Shown here one piece after another: positions 1-38,686 of a stretch of DNA of 38,686 bases (its first letter is position 1; every line of letters begins with the position of its first letter). Source of the DNA: a virus (taxonomy: Duplodnaviria; Heunggongvirae; Uroviricota; Caudoviricetes). A program made the translations under genes and the position numbers. The notes under the pieces are model-generated. The model was not told the DNA's origin and ran no database searches. It was given only the letters and a program-made list of their open reading frames with translations. The DNA lies in IMG/VR virus record IMGVR_UViG_2698536640_000025; one strand, written 5' to 3'.

Positions 1-480
1 TCATAGCGGCTGCCAGGTTATGGGTAACCACTGCCAGGCGGCACCGGGTTCCATCTGGGCCAGCTTCATGACATAACGCGGTTGTTGAGATAAAGCGTCC
101 AGCTTCGGCATTAATAAAGTTTGTGCGGCGTTATAAAAAACCGGTTCGAGATTCTTCGGCAGACTGGTCAACGTTTCGTTACGCAGCAGTTTCGCCACGC
201 CTTGTGGATTGATATAGAGCGGAACGATGCCATCAGTGGGTATTACATCCACCATTGCCGGGCGGGTTTTATTCAGTGTTTGCAGCGCGTTATTAACCAG
301 CGTGTCATCGAGGGAGAAAAGCAGCGTTTTGTTTTGCATCGCCAGCGACACGCGGAAAAAATAATCCGACATTAATTGATCGGGTTGCGCCGCCTGCGCT
401 TTCGGATACTGGCCGTATCGGGAACTCACTTCGCGACGCCAGATTTGCCCTTCGCCCTGCTGAGTCTGGCTTACCGGCAA
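1..480 (-). CDS. Hypothetical protein in the left chromosomal flank (159-aa ORF from a TTG; an in-frame ATG near 372 would give 123 aa starting MSDYFF). Identity not recognised; may be a host gene or a fragment truncated by the prophage.
   Basis: ORF track; stop codon at 1..3 on minus strand; start adjacent to the putative attL region 481..581. No motif recognised. Confidence 0.35.
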   Translation of the reverse strand: MPVSQTQQGEGQIWRREVSSRYGQYPKAQAAQPDQLMSDYFFRVSLAMQNKTLLFSLDDTLVNNALQTLNKTRPAMVDVIPTDGIVPLYINPQGVAKLLRNETLTSLPKNLEPVFYNAAQTLLMPKLDALSQQPRYVMKLAQMEPGAAWQWLPITWQPL

Positions 481-581
481 AACACCTTCTGGAGATTTAA
501 CACACCTTACTCCCCTTGATGATTTACTTATTTTTCAATGACTAAATCAAAACAAGGGGAGCAAATTAACGCAAATTACAA

Positions 582-1574
582 CTAGTCAATGGACAGTTTA
601 TGGACACTATCAGCCAGCGGATTAAAGCTAATCGCATCCTGTAAAAAGTCCGGTGAAAAATGCGCATACGTCATCGTTTGTTGAATCGTGGCGTGCCCAA
701 GGATTCGCTGTAACGTAACGATATTTCCGCCGTTCATCATGAAATGCGTGGCGAACGTGTGACGCATAACGTGAGTCGCCTGACCTTTGGGTAAATCCGG
801 TTTCACCTCCTGAAGGATATCCCGAAAACGGATGTAATCAGCCTGGTACAATAGCCCGGTTTTTCGGGTTTTTATCAACGAAAGCACCGTATCAGAAACA
901 GGAACCGCGCGGGATTTTCCATTCTTTGTGTTAAAGAACATTACGCGGTTACCAACGATATGCTCACCACGTAAGCCAGCTGCTTCCCCCCACCTTGCGC
1001 CAGTGGAAAGACACAGAACAGCAACACGACGCGCATCCCCCTCGAGTCGTTCAAGCAGCCGATCAATCTCATCATCTGAAAGAAAGGCCATTTCTGTATT
1101 CCTGACCTTGAGCTTACGTATTCCACGCACCGGGTTTTCGTTATGGAAAACCTCCGCATCAATCAGCGAGGTAAACATTGCAGACAAGGCGCACAAATCA
1201 CGATTAACACTGGAGGGCATTAATCCGGCCTGTAATTTGTCTGAACGATACCCGAGCATAAACTTTCGCGTCATCTCACTGGCGCGGGGGTCCCTCATCT
1301 CACGGTTTATTTTTTCCAGCCTGACCCTGTAAGTATCCCCGTAAGGCTGATTCCGGCCATCAAGCACCCACCAGGCATCTATCAGTTCGGATAACCGACG
1401 CTGATCAGCTGGCTTGGCCTGCCACGGTTTATCGTGGAAATTCTGCAAAACATACCTTTCAAACTCCTGTGCCTTTGACTTCAGGGTAAAAATCTTACGG
1501 ATCCGCTTTCCTTCCGTCCCTTGCGGTCTTACATCAACCTTATAACGCCCGTCTTTGAGTTGCTTAATCGACAT
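582..1574 (-). CDS. int: Tyrosine integrase, P2/186 Int family
   Basis: Protein MSIKQLKDGRYKVDVRPQG... resembles the 186/P2 Int N-terminus; C-terminal catalytic region with R..HxxR..Y context (HVMRHTFATH, LGHATIQQTMTYAH). Start placed at the internal ATG of track ORF 582..1589. Confidence 0.9.
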   Translation of the reverse strand: MSIKQLKDGRYKVDVRPQGTEGKRIRKIFTLKSKAQEFERYVLQNFHDKPWQAKPADQRRLSELIDAWWVLDGRNQPYGDTYRVRLEKINREMRDPRASEMTRKFMLGYRSDKLQAGLMPSSVNRDLCALSAMFTSLIDAEVFHNENPVRGIRKLKVRNTEMAFLSDDEIDRLLERLEGDARRVAVLCLSTGARWGEAAGLRGEHIVGNRVMFFNTKNGKSRAVPVSDTVLSLIKTRKTGLLYQADYIRFRDILQEVKPDLPKGQATHVMRHTFATHFMMNGGNIVTLQRILGHATIQQTMTYAHFSPDFLQDAISFNPLADSVHKLSID

Positions 1575-2088: not shown

Positions 2089-2613
2089 ATGCGGAAGTCA
2101 ATTGCCGATAAAGAGTTATCTGACACACAAGCCCTTCAGGAAAACGACAGCATCACCGAATCCGTTGGCGCGGCAAACGACGATGAACACCAAGAGGAAA
2201 AGAAAAAACGCACCTACAAAAAAGGGGCAACCTTGCGACTGGATGGCCCGGTAGCCGGACTTTGCTCACTTGAAAAAGGGGCAGCCTATATCGGGTTGAC
2301 AAAAGCTGCATTGCGCGTGGCGCTTCAGCGAAATCAGATGCCTGGACACAAGACCCGTTCAAACCCTGAAGATGAAAATTCGGATGGCGTATGGTGGTTT
2401 AACGCCAGAGAGTGGGACAAGCTGGCTGACGAACTACCAGAATGCGAGCCGCCAGAATGGCACAACTGGAAAAGCTACTGGACGTACGACCGACAGAAAA
2501 GAAAGTTTTCCCCGGCAAACAAAGAAGACTGCCAGACCATCAATGGAAAGCGGGTTTACACAGGAAGAAAGTCAAAACTGGAGCAACACCAATACAGCGA
2601 AGGCAACCAGTGA
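2089..2613 (+). CDS. First early-operon gene; putative Cox/Apl-like excisionase-type regulator with N- and C-terminal extensions (174 aa)
   Basis: Position immediately rightward of the repressor; internal segment LEKGAAYIGLTKAALRVALQ resembles an excisionase/Cox-type HTH; GAGGA RBS before the ATG. Functional name is an inference. Confidence 0.45.
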   Translation: MRKSIADKELSDTQALQENDSITESVGAANDDEHQEEKKKRTYKKGATLRLDGPVAGLCSLEKGAAYIGLTKAALRVALQRNQMPGHKTRSNPEDENSDGVWWFNAREWDKLADELPECEPPEWHNWKSYWTYDRQKRKFSPANKEDCQTINGKRVYTGRKSKLEQHQYSEGNQ

Positions 2614-2664
2614 CATCAAAACAAACCGGGATCATTAAGAGCATCGGGATTTGAATGTGTTGAC

Positions 2665-2859
2665 ATGACTGACTCCACTCAAACAAAAGACTTATACAGC
2701 GATTTACGCTTCATCATCATACAACAGCAATCAGGCAGGATGGATCCAACACGTGCAAGCAAGGCCTGGAAAGAAGCCCTTACCGATCAGGGGATCGATG
2801 TAATTAGCGAAGTCATGGCTGAAGTGATTTTTAGGCTGACAAGAGACGAATCACTGTAA
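2665..2859 (+). CDS. Hypothetical early protein (64 aa)
   Basis: ORF track; same strand and tight packing with the early operon. Confidence 0.35.
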   Translation: MTDSTQTKDLYSDLRFIIIQQQSGRMDPTRASKAWKEALTDQGIDVISEVMAEVIFRLTRDESL

Positions 2860-2884
2860 TCATCGCATAAGGACCGAGTGAAGA

Positions 2885-3208
2885 ATGAAGCAACAACGAA
2901 ATGCACGCATCAATAACAACACCGAACGCCACGTTGCACGCCAGCACTTCCGTAAAAATAGTGCGACCGCAACCACTGAAATCCATACCACACCAGACGG
3001 TCATCCGGTAAAACAAACCGGAAAGCACACCTGGGCGATTGGCGACACTGGCATCGTTATTCACAAAAGTTTTCGTAGCCCTGTTACTGGCAGATTTAAT
3101 TTTACCCTGACTCGCGGAGATGATTACTTCGGACAGGACTTCACATTTTTTGAAGCGTTAAGAACGGTCGATCGGTTAATGACTGGTCGTAATTTTCACG
3201 CTAAATGA
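2885..3208 (+). CDS. Hypothetical early protein (107 aa)
   Basis: ORF track; RBS-like GAGTGA before the ATG. Confidence 0.45.
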   Translation: MKQQRNARINNNTERHVARQHFRKNSATATTEIHTTPDGHPVKQTGKHTWAIGDTGIVIHKSFRSPVTGRFNFTLTRGDDYFGQDFTFFEALRTVDRLMTGRNFHAK

Positions 3209-3221
3209 TACAGATGAAAAC

Positions 3222-3437
3222 ATGGAAACATACAAAATTAAAAATATTGAACACCATGACGGTTTTTTCAGCACTGAACATGTTGCTTGTGTTGTCAGGA
3301 TTTTCAATGAAGTAGATGTGATTTTGAAGCAAAACATAAAGCTTGAAATCATCGCAAAAAGCGAAGCCGACGCCATTGAAATAAAAAAAGCTATTGAACG
3401 CCAGATAATGCCGTTGACAAGTATCATTGCATTTTAA
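3222..3437 (+). CDS. Hypothetical early protein (71 aa), AT-rich
   Basis: ORF track; ATG start; lies in an AT-rich stretch. Confidence 0.4.
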   Translation: METYKIKNIEHHDGFFSTEHVACVVRIFNEVDVILKQNIKLEIIAKSEADAIEIKKAIERQIMPLTSIIAF

Positions 3438-3455
3438 GCAACAGGAAAAATAACC

Positions 3456-3695
3456 ATGACCAGAAATTACAAAGAAATCGTCAATCAGATCATTAAGGCT
3501 TACAGCCACCGCATCGCAAAATCACCCGAGTTCATACGCATAATGGAGACGCGCTCATTAATGCAAGGACTGAACGGGTTGGCACTGGCCGCATTGGCAG
3601 CTAACGATATTGATGCCACTATCGAAATAAACAACCTGTTATTAGACATTGAAAAAGGCGGAAACATAGAACCCTACAATCTGGAGGCCGCATGA
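3456..3695 (+). CDS. Hypothetical early protein (79 aa)
   Basis: ORF track; ATG start 19 nt after the previous stop. Confidence 0.45.
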   Translation: MTRNYKEIVNQIIKAYSHRIAKSPEFIRIMETRSLMQGLNGLALAALAANDIDATIEINNLLLDIEKGGNIEPYNLEAA

Positions 3696-3817
3696 GCGTA
3701 TTTCTTTCGTGGGTAATTCTGATTATCTCCGTGCTTATGACAATCGGCATTATGCGAATTATCCACACACTGAAGGATATCGAATTATTCTTTACCGGCG
3801 ATAAACGCCGTAAATAA
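3692..3817 (+). CDS. Small hydrophobic peptide (41 aa, MSVFLSWVILIISVLMTIGIMRIIHTLKDIELFFTGDKRRK), single predicted TM helix
   Basis: Hand translation; ATGA start/stop overlap with the upstream gene; below the ORF-track length cutoff. Confidence 0.3.
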   Translation: MSVFLSWVILIISVLMTIGIMRIIHTLKDIELFFTGDKRRK

Positions 3818-3829
3818 AGCGAAAACCTT

Positions 3830-3931
3830 ATGAAGAATGTAAAAGCAATACTCACCATCGCCACTGTATGGGTGATATTTCAGGTGAGTGCGCTTATCTG
3901 GTTAGCCCTGAAGAATCTGGGGATAATCTGA
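3830..3931 (+). CDS. Small hydrophobic peptide (33 aa, MKNVKAILTIATVWVIFQVSALIWLALKNLGII), single predicted TM helix
   Basis: Hand translation; weak RBS; AT-rich context. Confidence 0.25.
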   Translation: MKNVKAILTIATVWVIFQVSALIWLALKNLGII

Positions 3932-4019
3932 AGCCGAAAGCAGGCGCGGAATAACACCAGAAAACACACGAACAATTAATTAAGGCATTCATGCCTTCGG
4001 ATTCCCTTTGTCTTTTTTC

Positions 4020-4262
4020 ATGAGTCAACAAATGAGAACAGCCGAATCACCCGGCAGAAAAATAACCGCCAGACCAGCTAACCATCATGCACATATCAGC
4101 ATTGCCGCAAGAAAAGCCGAGCGTGCGCATATCTGCGAATTGCTGCATGACCTGGTTAACACAGCGAGAGAGAAGCACACCTCCCCGGAGGAAACCTGTT
4201 CATCCATTGAACGACTGATTGCAATACTCGCCAACCCAGACGAACTGAAGGGGTGCGCATAA
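4020..4262 (+). CDS. Hypothetical early protein (about 80 aa)
   Basis: ORF track 4008..4262; first ATG at about 4020; stop overlaps the exonuclease start (TAATG). Confidence 0.4.
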   Translation: MSQQMRTAESPGRKITARPANHHAHISIAARKAERAHICELLHDLVNTAREKHTSPEETCSSIERLIAILANPDELKGCA

Positions 4263-4843
4263 TGAACCATCTCATGATTGACACCGAAACACTGGGTAAC
4301 GGACCGGACGCAGCCATATTCGCGATTGGGGCGGTGTTTTTCGACCCGTTCACCGGAAAGCTGGGCAAGCAGTTTGAGAAATTCATCGACCCGGTGGATT
4401 CAGAACGCAACGGCGGAACCGTCAATGCAGCCACCGCTGTATGGTGGGCCGGACAATCCGTGGAAGCCAGAGCCTGCCTGCGCAACGCAGATGGAACAGA
4501 GCTGGCAGCAGTGACCGAATTTCTGGCGTTCATTTCACGCAATATGCATGACGAAAGCCCGGGCAATTCACTGAACATATGGTGTAAGGGCGCATCCTTC
4601 GATTTCCCGATCCTGAAATCCGCCATAACACGCACAGCCGGAGAAAAAAGCATCCCCTGGTGCTACTGGAACGAGCGCTGTATGCGCCCGCTTATCGCCA
4701 TGGCTGAATCAACTGGATGGAAAATGCCAGGCAGATCAGGCAAAGAGACCATTGCTCACACCGCGCTGGGCGACGCCGTTTACCAGGCAAAGGTCGTGTC
4801 AGAAATCTGGCAGCGCTTCACAACACCATTCCTGAACATATGA
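4262..4843 (+). CDS. DEDDh-type 3'-5' exonuclease (DnaQ-like)
   Basis: Exo I motif MIDTETLG and Exo III-like HTALGDAVYQA; about 193 aa. Confidence 0.8.
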   Translation: MNHLMIDTETLGNGPDAAIFAIGAVFFDPFTGKLGKQFEKFIDPVDSERNGGTVNAATAVWWAGQSVEARACLRNADGTELAAVTEFLAFISRNMHDESPGNSLNIWCKGASFDFPILKSAITRTAGEKSIPWCYWNERCMRPLIAMAESTGWKMPGRSGKETIAHTALGDAVYQAKVVSEIWQRFTTPFLNI

Positions 4844-4852
4844 GGTGAAGCC

Positions 4853-5080
4853 ATGGTCGCCATCCTGAATGTGTGTTGCTGCCCCCCCCTGAACGTGGAA
4901 AGAAAAGCCCGCGCATCGCTGCGTTTATTCCGCGACGGCGTGCGGAATTTTTCACGCATAAAACCCCACGACTACCTGGTAATAAGAATCGGTTTTCGCT
5001 GGCGATTGCTGAGCAAAAACAACGGGGCGTCATGGGATTTATTAACGCACGAAACCTATAACAAAGAGGCCGCGTTATGA
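4853..5080 (+). CDS. Hypothetical small protein (75 aa)
   Basis: ORF track; GAGGTGA RBS; ATGA overlap with the dam start; unusual composition. Confidence 0.3.
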   Translation: MVAILNVCCCPPLNVERKARASLRLFRDGVRNFSRIKPHDYLVIRIGFRWRLLSKNNGASWDLLTHETYNKEAAL

Positions 5081-6021
5081 GCAAAGAACTGTTATCCGGC
5101 ACGCCGCTTAAATGGGTGGGCGGAAAAAGTCGCATCATGAACACACTGAAGGCGCATCTGCCAGAAGCAGACTGCCTGGTTGAGCCGTTTGTGGGTGGCG
5201 CATCGGTATTCATGAACACCAGTTACAAGCGTTACATCCTGGGTGATTCCAATGGTGCGCTGATTAATTTCTACCGGCAAGCCAGGGACAACACCGACAG
5301 CCTGATCGACGAGGCGAAAACCCTGTTCCTGAACCACAACAACAGGGGTGACTATCTCATCATTCGCGAAACCTTTAACGCAGAGAATCATGCCTTCCTG
5401 AACAGCAGAACGGGAATAAGCGACCGCCGTGAACTGCGACTGGCCGCCATGTTTTTGTACCTGAACCGACACAGCTTTAACGGTTTGTTCCGCGTGAACG
5501 GAAAAGGCGATTTTAACGTGCCTTTCGGCTGCTACCGCAAGCCCTACTTCCCTGAGCGGGAAATCCGCGCATTTGCAGACAAGGCAAACAGCACCCGAAC
5601 GCTGCTTATCCACGCAGATTTTAAGGATACGCTGAACTCTGCCAGTCACCTGTTCGGCATGGGCAACACGCTTTGCGTGTACTGTGATCCCCCTTACCTG
5701 CGATTCAGTGGCCGGGACAATTTCACCGCCTACGGAAAACCATTCGATGAAGACGAGCACGTTCGTCTGAGGGCAGCGCTTGACCGCCTTTCACAGGAAA
5801 CGGGCGGCATGACCAGCATCACCATATCCAATTCCGACACACCGGAAACCAGACGCATTTATCAGGGTTACCGGATGAACGCCATCCAGGCACCACGAAG
5901 CGTTGGCGCAAGAACCCGGGAATCAGCACCGGAGGTTATCGCCACCCTGAGATGCATCACATCCGCCTTATCAACGGTTCGCACTTCTGCGCCACGAACA
6001 TGGAAGAAGTACGCGTGCTGA
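5077..6021 (+). CDS. dam: DNA adenine methyltransferase (Dam family, N6-adenine MTase)
   Basis: AdoMet-binding motif EPFVGGASV and catalytic DPPY motif (CDPPYL); AAAGAGG RBS. Confidence 0.9.
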   Translation: MSKELLSGTPLKWVGGKSRIMNTLKAHLPEADCLVEPFVGGASVFMNTSYKRYILGDSNGALINFYRQARDNTDSLIDEAKTLFLNHNNRGDYLIIRETFNAENHAFLNSRTGISDRRELRLAAMFLYLNRHSFNGLFRVNGKGDFNVPFGCYRKPYFPEREIRAFADKANSTRTLLIHADFKDTLNSASHLFGMGNTLCVYCDPPYLRFSGRDNFTAYGKPFDEDEHVRLRAALDRLSQETGGMTSITISNSDTPETRRIYQGYRMNAIQAPRSVGARTRESAPEVIATLRCITSALSTVRTSAPRTWKKYAC

Positions 6022-6049
6022 CAGCAACACGCAATACGGGAGGTAAAGC

Positions 6050-6838: not shown

Positions 6839-7221
6839 CAGAAACACCCCGCGTATGCAGACAATCACCAGTTGCCAGGTGATATTAATTCGCCACATTC
6901 TAACCACATCAGCACGCAACACAAAAACCGCTTGCCAGCGCTCGTCGTGTCGGGTTACATTTCCGCTGCACCTCATAAAACGGGTGCCGGGATTTCCACC
7001 CTGCTGACTAGCAAAGCGCACTACCGCGCCAGCGGTTTTTTTGTGCGTACTGTATTGCCACGTTTTTTTCGCATCAGAATTATGGCGGGGCGTACGGGGC
7101 CGACTTCGGTCGGGCCGGGTTCTTTGCTAGCCGGTTGTGGAAACCCTGTACGTCTCGCCACCCCGAGTTTTCCACCTCCGGTTGGTGAGTTTTCAAAACT
7201 TACTAGCAAAGAGGCCACACC

Positions 7222-21211: not shown

Positions 21212-21329
21212 TGTGGCTGACTGGGGAGACCGACTGGTAGATGCCCTGGACAGTTGTAATGCCGATAAAGCCGCCATTGCCGGGCTGGAGCGGCAGCGGA
21301 CAGCACGAATGAACACTCATGAAAAATAA
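21054..21329 (+). CDS. Outer-membrane lipoprotein spanin (Rz1/LysC-like), overlapping the Rz-like gene in another frame
   Basis: Lipobox LLTAC in MSAHALLPLLMLLTACNN; embedded/overlapping arrangement as in P2 lysB/lysC. Confidence 0.7.
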   Translation: MSAHALLPLLMLLTACNNTPAPLKTGVICGSVPESLTRQTPVPVLPQHMIWADVADWGDRLVDALDSCNADKAAIAGLERQRTARMNTHEK

Positions 21330-21339
21330 CGGAGTCACT

Positions 21340-23385
21340 ATGGTACCGAAACATTATCAGCTTGTGACGGCAATGACGAACAAGGAACTTGCCGAAAAAC
21401 TTGCGCCCATGCTCAGGGAAGGATGGGGACTTCTTGGGGGACCTGTCTCAGCATCAGAGCCGGGAGCACCATTTTACCTGATGCAGGCACTGGTCACTGA
21501 CAGAGACCTGCCATCAGCCATTCCGGTACCAGAAGGCGAGGAAAACCCCGTACCGGGCACTACCGACGGATACGACACTGGACACACAACTGAGCCAGAG
21601 TTTTATTATGTGGTGCCACTGGCTGGTCAGTCCAATGGCATGGCATACGGTGAGGGGCTGCCATTACCCGATACATTCGACAGTCCTGATCCACGAATTA
21701 AACAGTTAGCGCGTCGCAGTACGGTAACACCGGGCGGCGCTGCATGTACCTATAACGATATTATTCCGGCAGATCACTGTCTCCATGATGTACAGGATAT
21801 GAGCAGCCTTAATCATCCGAACGCCGATCTGTCAAAAGGTCAGTATGGCTGCGTCGGACAGGGTTTACATATTGCCAAAAAATTACTGGCGTTTATCCCG
21901 AAAAATGCAGGGATCCTCCTGGTACCTTGCTGTCGTGGAGGGTCAGCGCTTACTTCCGGCGCTGAGGGGGCATTCAGTGAATCTTCAGGAGCAACGGCCG
22001 AATCATCCCTGTGGGGCGTCGGCAAACCGCTGTATAACGATCTGCTTACCCGTACAAAAGCCGCGCTGGATAAAAACCCCAAAAACGTCCTGTTATCCGT
22101 GGTCTGGATGCTGGGAGAGTTTGATCTGAAATCAGCAACATACGCACAGCACCCGCAATTATTCCTGAACATGGTGAATCAGTTCCGCGCCGATCTCAGC
22201 GCATATGCTGCACAGTGCACCGGAGGCAACGCATCACTTGTTCCCTGGATTTGCGGCGATACCACCTATATCTGGAAACAACAATATACCTCTCAGTACC
22301 CGGTGGTTTACGGTGCATATCAGAACAAAGAAGCGCAAAAAATTTATTTTGTGCCCCTGATGACCGATGAGAAAGGTGCTAACACGCCAACAAACCTGCC
22401 TGCCGAAGATCCTGACCTGGCAGAAGCCGGTTATTACGGTGCTGCATCCCGTAGTAACGGAAACTGGACCTCTTCAGATCGCGCCACGCATTTCAGTTCA
22501 TGGGCCCGCCGCGGCATTATTTCTGACCGCCTGGCAACGGCGATCCTGATGCATGCCGGGAAGACCGTCGCCTTCCTGAAAGGTGCACCCGCACCGTTCA
22601 GCGTGGTCGCAGTACCTCCCGCCACGGCCGGTTCAGACAGCACCACCACGGAAAGCCCGCAGCCCTACACACCTGCACCTCAGCCGGGCGCAGGTACGCA
22701 GTCATCACCGGCAAGAACAACGGCCGTCGCTTATCGCGCAGACGCACAGGAAGGGAAACTGAAAGAACAGGGCTGGACAGGGGCAGATGGAAAAGCCTCC
22801 GTCGTAAATGACTCTGCTGCTGAGAGCGGTAAAGCCATGCGAGTGGAAAAAGTCCAGGGGCAACAAACAGCCTGGAAAATCGCCCACGATGTGCCTGCAA
22901 GTAAAGCAGCTGAATTACTTCAGAAAGGCGGGGAAATTGCCTTTCGTTTCAAAATCCCGGAAGGTGTTCAGCTGGCAGAAAACCGCTTCGCCATGGCTCT
23001 GCACTGGCCGGTTTCTCAGCTACCTGAAAACGTTGTTCTGGAAGGCAGCGCAGGAAACGATATGCTGGCCGCCTTCTTCATCCAGAGCGACAGCGCAAAC
23101 CTGAATCTGATGCAGCACAAACAACAGAATGCAAAACTGGGAACCTTCGGGGCATTTAATCATAACTGGCACAACGTGGTGTTCCGGTTTGCCGGAAATA
23201 ACAGCATCAGCGTGACACCGGTCATCAACGGTCAGACCCAGGCGGCCTTTAATCTGGCGAAATGCCCGGCGGCAGGACTGGATAACGACAAACTGCTGAT
23301 CACGGATATCACCAGTAACAAGGACACCTACCCCGTGCTGATTGAGTATGTGACGGTGGATATCAATAACAGCAACGCCGCATAA
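21340..23385 (+). CDS. Putative NanS-p-like sialate O-acetylesterase (DUF1737-like N-terminus, SGNH/SASA esterase domain, Pro/Thr-rich linker, C-terminal carbohydrate-binding-like domain); moron gene
   Basis: GQSNG block-I esterase motif (PLAGQSNGMAYGEG); N-terminal HYQLVTAMTNKELAEKLAPMLREGWGLLG; linker PPATAGSDSTTTESPQPYTPAPQP; GGAG RBS; occupies the gap between lysC and R that is empty in P2. Confidence 0.65.
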   Translation: MVPKHYQLVTAMTNKELAEKLAPMLREGWGLLGGPVSASEPGAPFYLMQALVTDRDLPSAIPVPEGEENPVPGTTDGYDTGHTTEPEFYYVVPLAGQSNGMAYGEGLPLPDTFDSPDPRIKQLARRSTVTPGGAACTYNDIIPADHCLHDVQDMSSLNHPNADLSKGQYGCVGQGLHIAKKLLAFIPKNAGILLVPCCRGGSALTSGAEGAFSESSGATAESSLWGVGKPLYNDLLTRTKAALDKNPKNVLLSVVWMLGEFDLKSATYAQHPQLFLNMVNQFRADLSAYAAQCTGGNASLVPWICGDTTYIWKQQYTSQYPVVYGAYQNKEAQKIYFVPLMTDEKGANTPTNLPAEDPDLAEAGYYGAASRSNGNWTSSDRATHFSSWARRGIISDRLATAILMHAGKTVAFLKGAPAPFSVVAVPPATAGSDSTTTESPQPYTPAPQPGAGTQSSPARTTAVAYRADAQEGKLKEQGWTGADGKASVVNDSAAESGKAMRVEKVQGQQTAWKIAHDVPASKAAELLQKGGEIAFRFKIPEGVQLAENRFAMALHWPVSQLPENVVLEGSAGNDMLAAFFIQSDSANLNLMQHKQQNAKLGTFGAFNHNWHNVVFRFAGNNSISVTPVINGQTQAAFNLAKCPAAGLDNDKLLITDITSNKDTYPVLIEYVTVDINNSNAA

Positions 23386-36103: not shown

Positions 36104-36406
36104 ATGTTTCATTGTCCATTCTGCGGCGCATCTGCCCGGATCCGTACCAGTAAAGCCGCCAATGATACCGGCACCATCCGCTACAAATACTATCAGTGCA
36201 ATAACCTTGAGTGCAGCGCCACATTTTCAACAATGGAAAGTGTGCACAGAATTATTGGCCAGCCTCAGTTGATCTTCCACGATAAAGATATTCCACGGGA
36301 GACAATGCGCAAATCCCATCAGGGACGCAGTCAGTTAACGCTACAACTGGAGGATTGCGGTATGGCTTTAAAACCAGTACATTACGCGCGGGTGCCTTTC
36401 GGCTGA
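36104..36406 (+). CDS. ogr: Late transcription activator, Ogr/Delta zinc-finger family, with C-terminal extension (about 100 aa vs 72 in P2)
   Basis: MFHCPFCG...(22)...CNNLEC = CX2C-X22-CX4C zinc finger; the last about 9 codons are encoded by the first hok repeat. Confidence 0.75.
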   Translation: MFHCPFCGASARIRTSKAANDTGTIRYKYYQCNNLECSATFSTMESVHRIIGQPQLIFHDKDIPRETMRKSHQGRSQLTLQLEDCGMALKPVHYARVPFG

Positions 36407-36726
36407 CGGCTGGAAGGAAAACCTGAAGGCCGGATGTGGAAAGGCCCCGAGTCAAACATATTGTTTAACCCGAGGCCCTAACCATTCCTACCCTAGACAA
36501 GTGGAAGGTTAGCGCCTCCCTGTAAAAGGAGTCAAGCGCTATGCCGCAAAAAACGATCATCGTGAGCATTTTATGCTTAACCATGTTGTTGGCCATCTGG
36601 ATGATACACCGTTCGCCGTGTGAGTTCAGACTTAACATCATGTGGTCAGAATTTGCGGCGTTCTTGCAGTGTAAACAGTAAGAAACCGCAGCGGGGGTGA
36701 AAGCCCCCGCTATCCGGTTGTCGGGT
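36381..36726. repeat. Tandem direct repeat copy 1 (about 346 bp), a hok/sok-like type I toxin-antitoxin locus
   Basis: About 85 percent identical to copy 2 over its length; period about 477 bp; contains a hok-like ORF and a GC stem-loop after it. Confidence 0.8.
36541..36681 (+). CDS. Hok/Gef-family membrane toxin (46 aa, MPQKTIIVSILCLTMLLAIWMIHRSPCEFRLNIMWSEFAAFLQCKQ)
   Basis: Single TM followed by a CE(F/I)R...EFAAF pattern typical of the Hok family; AAGGAG RBS. Confidence 0.7.
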   Translation: MPQKTIIVSILCLTMLLAIWMIHRSPCEFRLNIMWSEFAAFLQCKQ

Positions 36727-36762
36727 TCAGTCGATATGGCACCCCTTTCTCCATTGGATTAC

Positions 36763-36786
36763 AGACGTATTTGCCCGCAATATGCG
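36763..36786 (+). terminator. Rho-independent terminator after hok-like locus 1 (GCCCGCA-ata-TGCGGGC + T6)
   Basis: Read directly. Confidence 0.6.
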
Positions 36787-36857
36787 GGCTTTTTTGCCGC
36801 CCTCCCCCTAAACAGTTTCAACACTGAGCATTGCGCGCACAAAGGGAAATCAGTAGA

Positions 36858-37200
36858 TTACACGTGGGTGCCTTTCGGCTGACGGCTGGAAGGATTACCT
36901 GAAGGCCGGATGTGAAAAGGCCCCGAGTCAAACATTTGTTTAACCCGAGGCCCTAACCATCTAACCTTCGCAAGTGGAAGGTTAGCGCCTCTCCAACAAA
37001 GGAGCAAGCGCTATGTCGCAAAAATCGCTTATGGCCATCACGTTCTGCGTGACGGCAATCCTCATCATCTGGATGTTACATGGTTCGCTGTGTGAAATAC
37101 GGATGAACATCTGGGGAGCGGAGTTTGCGGCGTTCTTACAGTGTAAGCAGTAAGGAAACCGCGACGGGGGAGTAATCCCCCGTCAATCGGTTGTCAGGGT
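36858..37200. repeat. Tandem direct repeat copy 2 (about 343 bp), hok/sok-like locus
   Basis: Matches copy 1 with scattered substitutions. Confidence 0.8.
37013..37153 (+). CDS. Hok/Gef-family membrane toxin (46 aa, MSQKSLMAITFCVTAILIIWMLHGSLCEIRMNIWGAEFAAFLQCKQ)
   Basis: SLCEIR and EFAAF motifs as in Hok; AAGGAG RBS. Confidence 0.75.
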   Translation: MSQKSLMAITFCVTAILIIWMLHGSLCEIRMNIWGAEFAAFLQCKQ

Positions 37201-37247
37201 AAGGCCGAAAGTAGCACCCTCACACGCAAGTCACAAAGAAAAATAAA

Positions 37248-37279
37248 GCCCGCAGCGTAAAAACTGCGGGCTTTTTTTG
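37248..37279 (+). terminator. Rho-independent terminator after hok-like locus 2 (GCCCGCAG...CTGCGGGC + T7)
   Basis: Read directly. Confidence 0.6.
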
Positions 37280-37348
37280 TTTCAAAGATGGGCATTATAT
37301 GGACACCTGAAAATAAATCCCTTTTATTTTCAGTTAATTAACCTCATG

Positions 37349-37374
37349 CAAAAAGCGCCCGCAGGCGCTTTTTA
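37349..37374 (-). terminator. Bidirectional stem-loop terminator downstream of serS (AGCGCC-cgca-GGCGCT flanked by A5 and T5)
   Basis: Read directly; about 20 nt after the serS stop codon. Confidence 0.6.
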
Positions 37375-37393
37375 GATTCAGAAAAATTGGGTA

Positions 37394-38686
<1,293 letters not shown>

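What the first reader, a model, noticed from the sequence alone, without database searches (positions are those of the whole stretch)
36378..37290. Two diverged tandem hok/gef-family type I toxin loci between the prophage end and serS
Two direct repeats of about 345 bp, spaced about 477 bp and about 85 percent identical, each encode a 46-aa Hok-like peptide with an AAGGAG RBS, a GC stem-loop after the ORF and a rho-independent terminator. Both ORFs look intact. It is unclear whether the pair is phage cargo beyond ogr or chromosomal; either way it is a candidate post-segregational-killing or abortive-infection module flanking the prophage.
Basis: partly seen in the sequence, partly recalled or inferred. 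Interest (0 to 1): 0.55.

Follow-up and report, generated by a model that had tools for sequence, protein, structure and literature searches.

The report
Two phage-borne Hok toxin cassettes
Two neighbouring copies of a small membrane-toxin gene of the well-known Hok/Sok "toxin plus antisense RNA" type sit at the very end of a P2-like prophage in E. coli; they belong to the phage, are already labelled Hok/Gef in public genomes, and their only unusual traits are the tandem arrangement and the lack of the usual helper reading frame (mok).

Summary
Two direct repeats (36355-36796 and 36831-37281, period 472-476 nt) each carry an intact 46-aa ORF. Both ORFs pass Pfam HOK_GEF. Each has an AAGGAG ribosome-binding site, a GC stem-loop after the ORF and a terminator. 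The repeats are 79-83% identical, not 85%, and the peptides 57%.

Each unit has the anatomy of a hok mRNA:
- a conserved weak promoter
- a 150-nt leader homologous to the K-12 hokC leader
- a 5' GGGUGCC that can pair with a 3' GGCACCC
- compensatory base changes in several helices
- a predicted Sok-like antisense RNA of about 62 nt

No mok reading frame exists in either copy or is conserved in the subfamily.

The pair is phage cargo, not chromosome. The att core (37350-37365, the serS terminator) lies beyond it. K-12 has nothing there. The same ogr-hok-hok end sits at a different chromosomal site in another strain, and phage P88 carries one copy.

RefSeq annotates both peptides. The subfamily is in 1,736 of 5,426 complete E. 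coli genomes, but tandem arrays are in only about 19.

Verdict: an ordinary member of a known kind. The side observations are mok-independence and a hypervariable Sok-target segment. Function is untested.

The parts
36104..36406 (+). ogr/Delta-type late-gene activator (100 aa). Its last 17-18 codons read into the hokA promoter and the first 17 nt of the hokA mRNA.
   Evidence: Pfam Ogr_Delta, 58.3 bits. Residues 1-82 align with an 86-aa Ogr of a P88-like phage; the remainder is encoded by the cassette. Annotated as WP_016237816.1 in identical loci.
36355..36383 (+). Predicted hokA promoter: TTGCGG (36355-36360), 17-nt spacer, TACATT (36378-36383).
   Evidence: The TTGC and TA.A.T boxes keep fixed spacing in 18 of 20 cassettes (17 of those 18 with -10 TA.ATT, 1720a TACAGT) although the spacer is unrelated; Z1324 and pETEC1749 lack them. 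Too weak for the consensus scan. Inferred.
36390..36796 (+). hokA full-length mRNA (about 407 nt): tac GGGUGCC 36390-36396, ucb GAAAGGCCCC about 36439-36448, fbi GGCACCC 36739-36745.
   Evidence: The Rfam RF01794 match starts at 36390 and ends at the hok AUG. The MFE fold closes the 5' end on the 3' end, z = -6.7. The 3'-truncated RNA refolds into a tac-ucb hairpin.
36541..36681 (+). hokA CDS, 46 aa: MPQKTIIVSILCLTMLLAIWMIHRSPCEFRLNIMWSEFAAFLQCKQ.
   Evidence: ORF. Pfam HOK_GEF 26.6 bits, above the 22-bit threshold. The cassette is 100% identical at the DNA level to loci annotated WP_001135719.1.
36434..36499 (-). Predicted SokA antisense RNA (about 60-65 nt): 5' single-stranded tail plus an 18-bp hairpin.
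   Evidence: Fold gives z = -5.9. Its position relative to the hok AUG matches the annotated sokC of K-12. The architecture is kept in all 16 distinct variants. Not shown experimentally.
36506..36535 (-). Predicted sokA promoter on the minus strand: -35 TTGACT (36535-36530, overlapping the hok SD), 18-nt spacer, -10 TAACCT (36511-36506).
   Evidence: Read from the sequence. The complement of the -10 lies in a block invariant in 18 of 18 cassettes. Not flagged by the consensus scan.
36684..36719 (+). 3' GC-rich stem-loop of hokA mRNA, the presumed protective end of the processed mRNA.
   Evidence: Folds. Compensatory changes occur at three of its pairs across 18 cassettes.
36773..36796 (+). Intrinsic terminator of hokA.
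36831..36859 (+). Predicted hokB promoter: TTGCGC (36831-36836), 17-nt spacer, TAGATT (36854-36859).
   Evidence: Inferred.
36866..37281 (+). hokB full-length mRNA (about 416 nt): tac 36866-36872, fbi GCACCC 37214-37219, 3' stem-loop about 37157-37192, terminator 37245-37281.
   Evidence: Rfam match 36866-37023. The fold closes 5' on 3', z = -8.4. Terminator found on both strands.
37013..37153 (+). hokB CDS, 46 aa: MSQKSLMAITFCVTAILIIWMLHGSLCEIRMNIWGAEFAAFLQCKQ.
   Evidence: ORF. Pfam HOK_GEF 30.3 bits. The peptide is identical to the one annotated WP_000078909.1.
36910..36972 (-). Predicted SokB antisense RNA. Promoter: -35 TTGCTC (37007-37002), 17-nt spacer, -10 TAACCT (36984-36979).
   Evidence: Predicted only.
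37282..37349 (.). Phage attP arm between the hokB terminator and the core. Contains TATGGACAC (37298-37306), which also occurs at 599-607 next to int.
   Evidence: This stretch is shared with a strain that carries the same phage end at a different chromosomal site. Exact repeat.
37350..37373 (.). attR core, AAAAAGCGCCCGCAGG (37350-37365), inside the serS terminator hairpin. This is the true right end of the prophage.
   Evidence: Similarity to the K-12 empty site begins here, and similarity to the prophage at the other site ends here. The attL of strain SCU-106 shows the same 16-nt core joined to the phage int side.
37394..38686 (-). serS (host gene), convergent with the hok cassettes.

Best explanation
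These are two Hok/Sok-type type I toxin-antitoxin cassettes. They are carried as accessory cargo at the att-proximal end of a P2-like (P88/Xuanwuvirus-like) prophage integrated in the serS terminator, between ogr and attP.

**Proposed mechanism (inferred by homology).**
1. Each cassette makes a stable mRNA of about 410 nt from a weak promoter.
2. In the full-length RNA the 5' end (tac, GGGUGCC) pairs with the 3' end (fbi, GGCACCC). The hok SD is held in a CUCC:GGAG hairpin, and the AUG pairs with the 3' part of the CDS. The RNA is therefore translationally inert.
3. Slow 3' trimming back to the GC stem-loop frees tac to pair with ucb. This opens the leader.
4. A short-lived antisense RNA of about 62 nt (Sok-like) is made from a promoter overlapping the hok SD. 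It pairs through its 5' tail with that opened leader and blocks expression, probably with RNase III cleavage of the duplex.
5. When transcription of the cassette stops, Sok decays first. This could follow loss of the prophage, shut-off by an infecting phage, or prophage induction. The 46-aa peptide is then made, inserts in the inner membrane and depolarises or kills the cell.

**Departure from the R1 model.** There is no mok frame, so Sok must act without translational coupling. The options are decay, refolding, or blocking a ribosome standby region upstream of the structured hok start.

**The two copies.** They are different alleles, A-type and B-type. Their Sok 5' tails differ, so they are probably at least partly insulated from each other.

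**What is shown and what is inferred.** Shown here: family membership of the peptides, RNA homology and structure signals, absence of mok, and phage ownership. Inferred: the transcripts, the toxicity, how Sok acts, and the biological role.
For: **Family.** Pfam HOK_GEF is above threshold for both peptides. PHROG 251 matches at E 1e-18 and 1e-22. Both align to HokC through the CE.R...AAF core. RefSeq names both peptides Hok/Gef.

**RNA.**
- The Rfam hok/sok leader model hits both copies end to end at E about 1e-8, and the leaders align to K-12 hokC/sokC.
- The 5'-3' closure appears in the MFE folds, z = -6.7 and -8.4. The tac-ucb hairpin appears in the consensus and in truncated hokA.
- 10 of 83 consensus pairs show compensatory changes.
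- The Sok geometry matches the annotated sokC. The tail-plus-hairpin shape is kept in 16 of 16 variants.

**Peptide under selection.** dN/dS is 0.2-0.6. Of 98 cassettes, 93 have an intact 46-aa ORF.

**Phage cargo.** The att core lies beyond the cassettes. The same ogr-hok-hok end is at a tRNA-Lys cluster in S19-651. Single copies sit between ogr and the genome end in P88 and in related phage or prophage records (Shae_phiSM, plasmid-borne pS2122). hok is the last gene of about 24 IMG/VR proviruses.

**Experimental precedent in a prophage.** hokW-sokW of Sp5 (PMC8621323).
Against: - No expression, toxicity or antisense data exist for this subfamily.
- In R1, mok translation up to the hok SD is mandatory for Hok synthesis (PMC9841398, PMC4147584). 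mok is missing here, so the cassettes could be poorly translated or controlled differently.
- The Rfam scores are below the gathering threshold (44-46 against 59).
- The narrower NCBIfam Hok/HokA models are far below their cut-offs.
- The simple sigma-70 scan flags neither the hok nor the sok promoters.
- The tac and fbi boxes are invariant, so covariation cannot test that pairing.
- Truncated hokB does not give the tac-ucb hairpin as its MFE structure.
- About 50 nt of the two Sok RNAs are nearly identical, so cross-talk is not excluded.
Confidence: 0.8

Rival explanations
1. Silent relics. The cassettes are hok-derived but can no longer be translated because the mok frame, which R1 hok needs, has been lost. 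On this view they persist only by hitch-hiking with the att end of phages.
For: No mok in either copy, and none conserved in 18 cassettes. At the position of the mokC ATG, copy A has ATT and copy B has ATC. Many chromosomal hok loci in K-12 are known to be inactivated (PMC8309996). The hok SD and AUG are both sequestered in the predicted folds.
Against: The ORF is intact at 46 aa in 93 of 98 cassettes. dN/dS is 0.2-0.6. A strong AAGGAG sits at canonical spacing. The whole RNA architecture is conserved, with compensatory changes. The subfamily is kept in 32% of complete E. coli genomes and 198 phage records. Decay would not preserve all of this.
Confidence: 0.1
2. The same molecular device, but its selected role is to help the phage's own lytic cycle (earlier or more complete lysis and release) rather than prophage addiction or defence. 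This was shown for hokW-sokW of the Stx2 phage Sp5.
For: In Sp5, sokW disappears and HokW appears on RecA-dependent induction, and deleting the locus halves phage release (PMC8621323). Here hokA lies directly downstream of, and overlaps, the late activator gene ogr on the same strand, with no terminator detected between them. Read-through in late infection is therefore conceivable.
Against: HokW is a different 51-aa subtype (PMC8621323). This prophage has its own holin/lysozyme/Rz cassette, as annotated in the near-identical prophage. Nothing here tests induction. The roles are not mutually exclusive.
Confidence: 0.25
3. A chromosomal locus. On this view the hok pair is a resident island at serS, left by earlier elements, and the P2-like prophage ends at ogr.
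For: Other, non-P2 prophage backbones at serS also have one to three hok cassettes next to serS, with the same serS-proximal B-type copy.
Against: The K-12 serS-dmsA spacer has no hok, and similarity starts only at the 16-nt core. The same ogr-hokA-hok end plus the 68-nt arm is found at a tRNA-Lys cluster, with similarity ending at the core. The attL of SCU-106 shows the matching core on the dmsA side. Sequenced phage genomes carry the cassette.
Confidence: 0.03

Closest known systems
hok/sok (parB) of plasmid R1, the paradigm type I toxin-antitoxin
   Same: - A small Hok/Gef membrane peptide.
- An mRNA of about 400 nt with a long leader.
- A 5' tac / 3' fbi closure and an alternative tac-ucb hairpin.
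- A protective 3' stem-loop.
- A cis-antisense RNA of about 60 nt with a 5' tail plus hairpin, aimed at the leader well upstream of the hok start.
(PMC9841398.)
   Different: - No mok reading frame, so there is no translational coupling.
- The peptide is 46 aa, not 52, and ends ...AAFLQCKQ.
- The locus is on a phage, not a plasmid.
- It is present as a tandem pair.
hokC (gef)/mokC/sokC of E. coli K-12
   Same: The leader is alignable base for base through tac, ucb, the Sok hairpin and the SD. The Sok position relative to the hok AUG is the same (49 and 107 nt in K-12 against about 42 and 105-107 nt here).
   Different: - The peptides are only 27-30% identical.
- The mokC ATG is replaced by ATT or ATC.
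- The NCBIfam Hok-subfamily cut-off is not reached.
hokW-sokW of Stx2 prophage Sp5 (PMC8621323)
   Same: A prophage-borne hok/sok module shown to be a working type I TA. Stx phages also carry the 46-aa subtype, downstream of lom.
   Different: HokW is a distinct 51-aa peptide (MKQQKAM...YESEK, from the paper's primers). Its role in phage release has not been tested for the 46-aa subtype or for P2-like phages.
Tandem type I loci ibs/sib and ldr/rdl, and zorO/zorP (PMC2887945, PMC3919570)
   Same: Type I toxin cassettes duplicated head to tail in one intergenic region. The copies differ most in the antisense recognition parts.
   Different: These are unrelated toxin families that sit on the chromosome. 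For hok, tandem arrays are rare, at about 19 of 5,426 genomes.
tisB/istR-1 standby-site control (PMC4147584)
   Same: This is a 'works like' comparison only. The antisense RNA binds a leader region tens of nucleotides upstream of a structured start site, with no leader ORF.
   Different: No homology. The standby mechanism is a hypothesis here, not tested.

Membership tests
Hok/Gef toxin family (Pfam PF01848) | Profile match above the curated gathering score | tested here: met
   26.6 bits (HokA) and 30.3 bits (HokB) against a cut-off of 22.
Hok/Gef toxin family (Pfam PF01848) | A peptide of about 50 aa with an N-terminal hydrophobic helix and a C-terminal tail carrying the conserved C-E-x-R ... 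A-A-F core and a C-terminal Cys | tested here: met
   Alignment to HokC. Invariant C27, E28, R30, A39, A40 and C44 in 8 subfamily peptides. The role of the periplasmic Cys in HokB is described in PMC8309996.
Hok/Gef toxin family (Pfam PF01848) | Toxic to the membrane when expressed | not testable with these tools
   Requires an induction experiment.
NCBIfam Hok subfamily NF007279 / HokA equivalog NF007290 | Score above the curated cut-off | tested here: not met
   22-27 bits against 73, and 34-37 bits against 89. This is a separate subtype, not HokA-E.
hok/sok-type type I TA locus (R1 parB model) | A long mRNA whose 5' end (tac) pairs with its 3' end (fbi) | tested here: met
   GGGUGCC pairs with GGCACCC in the MFE folds, z = -6.7 and -8.4. 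Both boxes are invariant, so covariation gives no test.
hok/sok-type type I TA locus (R1 parB model) | An alternative tac-ucb hairpin in the 3'-processed mRNA | tested here: inconclusive
   Predicted in the 18-sequence consensus, with two covarying pairs, and in truncated hokA. It is not the MFE structure of truncated hokB.
hok/sok-type type I TA locus (R1 parB model) | A cis-encoded antisense RNA (Sok) with its own promoter, a 5' single-stranded tail and a terminator hairpin, complementary to the leader | tested here: inconclusive
   Supported by the structure, by a -10 box that is invariant across cassettes, and by agreement with the annotated sokC. The promoter is not flagged by the consensus scan, and there are no transcript data.
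hok/sok-type type I TA locus (R1 parB model) | A mok reading frame that starts in the Sok target and is translationally coupled to hok | tested here: not met
   There are stops in all frames and no start codon in copy A. Copy B has only an ATT-initiated frame inside the hairpin loop. No frame is conserved across the 18 cassettes. The mokC ATG position reads ATT or ATC.
hok/sok-type type I TA locus (R1 parB model) | Rfam RF01794 at gathering score | tested here: not met
   43.9 and 45.9 bits against 59, although both are full-length matches at E 4e-8 and 1e-8. The match is on the hok-sense strand and ends at the hok AUG.
hok/sok-type type I TA locus (R1 parB model) | Stable toxin mRNA, unstable antitoxin, RNase III cleavage of the duplex | not testable with these tools
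   Needs rifampicin chase and rnc mutants.
Accessory cargo of P2-like phages (ogr-attP region) | Lies inside the att boundaries and moves with the phage | tested here: met
   The core is at 37350-37365. The same phage end is at a tRNA-Lys cluster. Present in P88, 500465-2, PhiR44_2 and Shae_phiSM.
Catalogued anti-phage defence systems (PADLOC) | Match to a defence-system model | tested here: not met
   No hit for either peptide.

The most novel reading that the evidence does not exclude
The 46-aa phage-borne Hok subfamily may be a distinct regulatory variant of hok/sok in two respects.

1. Control would be mok-independent. Sok would act on a leader segment that ends about 25-40 nt upstream of a structured hok start, through standby-site blocking, refolding or decay.

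2. The roughly 55-nt Sok-target segment behaves as a swappable, hypervariable specificity module. Its mean pairwise distance is 0.26, against 0.07 for the adjacent leader and 0.17 for the CDS. Some cassettes are identical everywhere else yet differ at 10-16 positions in this segment. Conversely, identical segments occur on CDS alleles that differ at 45-46 positions.

Such a module would let several cassettes, including tandem pairs like this one and up to 9 per genome, coexist without cross-neutralisation.
Probability: 0.4. Interest if true: 0.5.

Novelty: new member of a known kind. Interest (0 to 1): 0.28.

Why it matters
As found, it matters little. It is a correctly guessed, already annotated Hok/Gef pair, and the open question is settled: the pair is phage cargo.

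It does mark the ogr-attP junction as a cargo slot of P2-like phages. That slot is not covered by the published P2 hotspot survey (PMC9122126).

The subfamily could serve as a natural test case for two questions:
- How a hok-type toxin is controlled without mok.
- How antisense specificity diversifies when many paralogous type I modules share a cell.

Both questions are testable with simple genetics.

Tried and rejected
- **Rfam at gathering threshold.** It finds nothing in the region. Only the E-value mode shows the hok leader hits. The Thr_leader, trpB and STnc hits at 37187-37405 are just matches to the terminator and were dismissed.
- **Promoter scan.** The consensus scan flagged neither the hok nor the sok promoters. 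Its only hit (36595-36568, minus strand) lies inside the hokA CDS and is not conserved, so it was ignored.
- **mok.**
  - I searched all frames with canonical and near-cognate start codons. Sporadic frames exist in some relatives, for example a 70-codon ATG frame in Shae_phiSM and pS2122, but none is conserved and none is in the window copies.
  - A 13-codon AUU mini-ORF in copy A ends at the hok SD. I rejected it because copy B has AUC-UAA at the same place.
- **Sok hairpin covariation.** RNAalifold on the antisense alignment recovered only the invariant lower stem, because indels misalign the upper stem. I folded each sequence separately instead.
- **The search for related loci.** An alignment found only Salmonella plus three probable contaminant contigs among species representatives.
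- **Literature.**
  - Steif & Meyer 2012, 'The hok mRNA family', is not held. I therefore could not check whether mok-less hok loci were described there.
  - The name hokW first looked like the match, but the Sp5 HokW is a different 51-aa peptide.
- **PADLOC.** No hit.
- **Not run.** Structure prediction and the large protein searches were judged unnecessary.
Full report
**1. Observation**

The region holds two head-to-tail units.
- The repeat finder reports in-register blocks spaced 472-476 nt apart.
- A global alignment of about 470 nt gives 83% column identity. blastn gives 79.2% over 356 nt.
- Similarity starts at a TTGC box (36355 and 36831) and runs to an intrinsic terminator (36773-36796 and 37245-37281). 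The unit is therefore about 445 nt, not 345 nt.
- Each unit has an intact 46-aa ORF (36541-36681 and 37013-37153). Each ORF is preceded by AAGGAG and followed by a GC-rich stem-loop.
- Identity is uneven: 88.7% in the leader, 69.5% in the CDS and 65% in the 3'UTR. The peptides share 26 of 46 residues.
- Both units fold much better than shuffled controls, with z = -6.7 and -8.4.

The description is confirmed, with small numerical corrections.

**2. Family**

- Both peptides exceed the Pfam HOK_GEF gathering score: 26.6 and 30.3 bits against 22.
- Both match PHROG 251 'MokW-like host killing' at E 1e-18 and 1e-22.
- They align to K-12 HokC through the hydrophobic helix and the C-E-x-R ... A-A-F core at 27-30% identity.
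- They fall far below the cut-offs of the narrower NCBIfam HokA and Hok-subfamily models. This is a separate subtype.
- RefSeq already annotates the very same peptides as 'Hok/Gef family protein': WP_001135719.1 and WP_000078909.1.

**3. Sense-strand RNA anatomy**

- The Rfam model RF01794 ('sok', 157 positions) matches both copies over its whole length on the hok-sense strand, from 36390 and 36866 to the hok AUG. The E-values are 4e-8 and 1e-8, but the scores are below the gathering score (44-46 bits against 59). What it recognises is the hok leader.
- The leaders align base for base to the K-12 hokC/mokC/sokC locus.
- Upstream, a TTGC(N) box, a 17-nt spacer and a TA.A.T box keep their positions in 18 of 20 cassettes although the spacer is unrelated (17 of those 18 have -10 TA.ATT, 1720a has TACAGT; Z1324 and pETEC1749 lack both boxes). 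This points to a weak promoter with +1 at the G of GGGUGCC.
- In the full-length RNAs the minimum-energy folds close this 5' GGGUGCC on a 3' GGCACCC. These are the tac and fbi elements of the R1 model (PMC9841398).
- I aligned 18 cassettes from E. coli genomes, phages and plasmids. The consensus fold predicts:
  - the alternative tac-ucb hairpin (columns 1-59);
  - a CUCC:GGAG hairpin that sequesters the hok SD;
  - pairing of the AUG region with the 3' part of the CDS;
  - the 3' GC stem-loop.
- 10 of the 83 consensus pairs carry compensatory double changes.
- Removing the last 75 nt or so makes hokA refold into the tac-ucb form. For hokB the prediction is less clear.

**4. Antisense RNA**

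- On the minus strand, a TTGACT (copy A) or TTGCTC (copy B) box overlaps the hok SD. It lies 18 or 17 nt from TAACCT.
- The complement of that -10 lies in a block that is invariant in 18 of 18 cassettes.
- A transcript starting about 7 nt downstream would be about 62 nt long. It would have a 12-15-nt single-stranded 5' tail and a 16-18-bp hairpin followed by UUU (z about -5.8).
- Relative to the hok AUG it spans about 42 to 105-107 nt upstream. The annotated sokC of K-12 spans 49 to 107 nt upstream of hokC.
- All 16 distinct variants keep the tail-plus-hairpin shape although the upper stem and loop sequences differ.
- The simple promoter scan does not flag these promoters, and there are no transcript data. 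Sok is therefore predicted, not shown.

**5. mok**

In R1, Sok blocks mok, and mok translation up to the hok SD is mandatory for Hok synthesis (PMC4147584, PMC9841398). That arrangement is not present here.
- All three frames upstream of hok are closed or lack a start codon in copy A.
- Copy B has only an ATT-initiated frame inside the hairpin loop.
- Across the 18 cassettes, half have no candidate frame even when near-cognate starts are allowed, and the rest have unrelated, non-conserved frames.
- At the position of the mokC ATG, copy A reads ATT and copy B reads ATC.
- This defining feature of the R1-type locus was tested and is not met.
- The peptide is nevertheless under purifying selection (dN/dS 0.2-0.6). 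Of 98 cassettes, 93 have an intact 46-aa ORF. Simple decay is therefore unlikely.

**6. Who owns the cassettes**

- The window is E. coli. The cassettes follow gpD and an Ogr/Delta zinc-finger gene of a P2-like prophage.
- The K-12 serS-dmsA spacer has no hok. Its similarity to the window begins only at AAAAAGCGCCCGCAGG..., the serS terminator (37350).
- In strain S19-651 the same ogr-hok-hok end, plus the 68 nt that follow, lies next to a tRNA-Lys/Val cluster. Similarity stops at the same core.
- In strain SCU-106 the same prophage lies between serS and dmsA. Its attL shows the 16-nt core joined to the phage int side.
- Sequenced P2-like phages (P88, 500465-2, PhiR44_2, Shae_phiSM) carry one B-type cassette after ogr.
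- In about 24 of 80 IMG/VR loci the cassette is the last gene of the predicted provirus.
- The pair is therefore phage cargo between ogr and attP. The prophage ends at 37350-37365.

**7. Population context**

- The subfamily occurs in 1,736 of 5,426 complete E. coli genomes, with up to 9 places per genome.
- It occurs in 198 phage records, mostly Stx phages where it lies downstream of lom, and in 34 plasmid records.
- Among species representatives, only Salmonella has it outside Escherichia.
- Tandem arrays are rare, at about 19 genomes.
- Copy A is closest to the TL-2011c type of Stx-phage cassette. Copy B is closest to the P88 type. The pair therefore combines two old alleles and is not a fresh duplication.
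- Arrays of A-A-B occur at serS in a different prophage backbone, with the same internal junction.
- In S19-651 the second copy is an A/B hybrid.

**8. Hypervariable Sok segment (side observation)**

- In 59 distinct cassettes, the roughly 55-nt segment between the invariant GAAAGGCCCC and AGGTTAGCGCCTC is the most divergent part of the locus. Its mean pairwise distance is 0.26. The 5' leader gives 0.066, the 3' leader 0.133 and the CDS 0.167.
- Of 37 pairs that differ at 2 or fewer positions elsewhere, 20 differ at 4-16 positions in this segment.
- The two upstream copies in strain N51 are identical in leader (87/87) and CDS (141/141) and nearly identical in the 3'UTR (69/70). They share only 49 of 64 positions in this segment.
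- Conversely, identical Sok segments sit on CDS alleles that differ at 45-46 positions.
- The two variability peaks are the Sok 5' tail and the hairpin apex.
- In the window pair, the cognate tail duplexes are -47 and -41.5 kcal/mol. The non-cognate ones are -24 and -20.5 kcal/mol. The remaining 50 nt or so are almost identical, so cross-talk is not excluded.
- In R1, Sok recognises its target through its 5' single-stranded leader (Thisted et al. 1994, as cited in PMC8309996).

**9. Mechanism I commit to**

These are two Hok/Sok-type type I toxin-antitoxin modules. The proposed sequence of events is as follows.
1. A stable, self-closed hok mRNA is made.
2. It is slowly opened by 3' trimming.
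3. It is then held in check by a short-lived antisense RNA.
4. The membrane toxin is made when transcription of the cassette ceases.

Because mok is absent, repression must work by duplex-triggered decay, by refolding, or by occupying a ribosome standby region upstream of the structured start. The last would be a 'works like tisB/istR-1' analogy (PMC4147584).

The biological pay-off cannot be decided from sequence. The candidates are prophage addiction, abortive infection on host shut-off, and help with lysis as for hokW-sokW (PMC8621323).

My confidence that the loci are functional Hok/Sok-type modules and phage cargo is about 0.8. It is much lower for any single role.

**10. Novelty and score**

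The family, the prophage location of hok loci (14 Hok genes in O157 Sakai; PMC2887945) and these exact peptides are already known. The finding is a new member of a known kind.

The less ordinary points are:
- the tandem A+B arrangement;
- the ogr-attP cargo slot, which the P2 hotspot survey does not cover (PMC9122126);
- the missing mok;
- the patchy hypervariability of the Sok target.

These lift interest modestly, to 0.28.

Noticed in passing
window 1-600: The int side of the prophage does not abut dmsA, as it does in strain SCU-106. Instead it abuts a 5'-truncated DUF2138 (yfaA-like) gene, followed by yfaT/yfaS-like genes. The junction is at the exact attP crossover point (AGATTTAACACACC at about 498). 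It is joined to GGCAAAACACCTTCTGG, which resembles the core AAAAAGCGCCCGCAGG. The same arrangement is in STEC2018-607. This suggests a secondary-site integrase event, or an inversion between two prophage copies roughly symmetric about the terminus.
   Followed up: partly
18 cassettes in alignment A3; 59 distinct cassettes from the window, L001-L015 and the IMG/VR loci (L023 onward): The roughly 55-nt Sok-complementary segment is the most variable part of the hok locus and is exchanged as a patch. Cassettes that are identical elsewhere differ at up to 16 positions in it. Identical segments occur on very different CDS alleles.
   Followed up: partly
window 36350-36406: The Ogr ORF is 100 aa. Residues 1-82 align with an 86-aa Ogr. 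The last 17-18 codons are read from the hokA promoter and mRNA start, so ogr and hokA overlap on the same strand with no terminator detected between them.
   Followed up: partly
L001 (S19-651) 3356-4373: The same phage end is integrated next to a tRNA-Lys/Val cluster and an RtT-like sRNA, with a one-base variant of the core. Its second cassette is an A-type body with a B-type 3' end, which suggests gene conversion inside the array.
   Followed up: partly
L007 (N51) 3001-4381; L008 (Bongo) 2306-3932; L009: A different prophage backbone ('baseplate complex protein' genes, no ogr) at the same serS site carries one to three hok cassettes, with the same serS-proximal B-type copy and the same internal junction. 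The hok array plus the att region seems to move between phage backbones as a module.
   Followed up: partly
window 6968-7165 (+): Two Rfam families score above their gathering thresholds in the early region of the prophage: isrK (6968-7042, 58.9 bits) and C4 antisense RNA (7078-7165, 80.3 bits).
   Followed up: no
window 599-607 and 37298-37306 (+): An exact TATGGACAC occurs just inside each prophage end, in the same orientation. These are candidate integrase arm-type sites. The count is not significant when one mismatch is allowed.
   Followed up: no
window about 4854-6022 and 21319-23385: By correspondence with the annotation of the near-identical prophage in STEC2018-607, the prophage also carries three other probable cargo genes: a ParE-family toxin-like gene next to a Dam methylase, and a 2-kb DUF6645 gene between the lysis and tail genes. 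Not verified in the window itself.
   Followed up: no
L019, L020, L021: Hok peptides 74-91% identical were found on contigs labelled Planococcaceae MAG, Vagococcus sp. and Xanthomonas pisi. Two of the three contigs are short (4.2 kb and 0.9 kb). They probably represent enterobacterial contamination of those assemblies.
   Followed up: no
Rfam RF01794, matches at window 36390-36552 and 36866-37023: The Rfam family named 'sok antitoxin' is 157 positions long. It matches the hok-sense strand from the mRNA 5' end to the hok AUG. In practice it therefore models the hok leader, not the roughly 60-nt antisense RNA.
   Followed up: no
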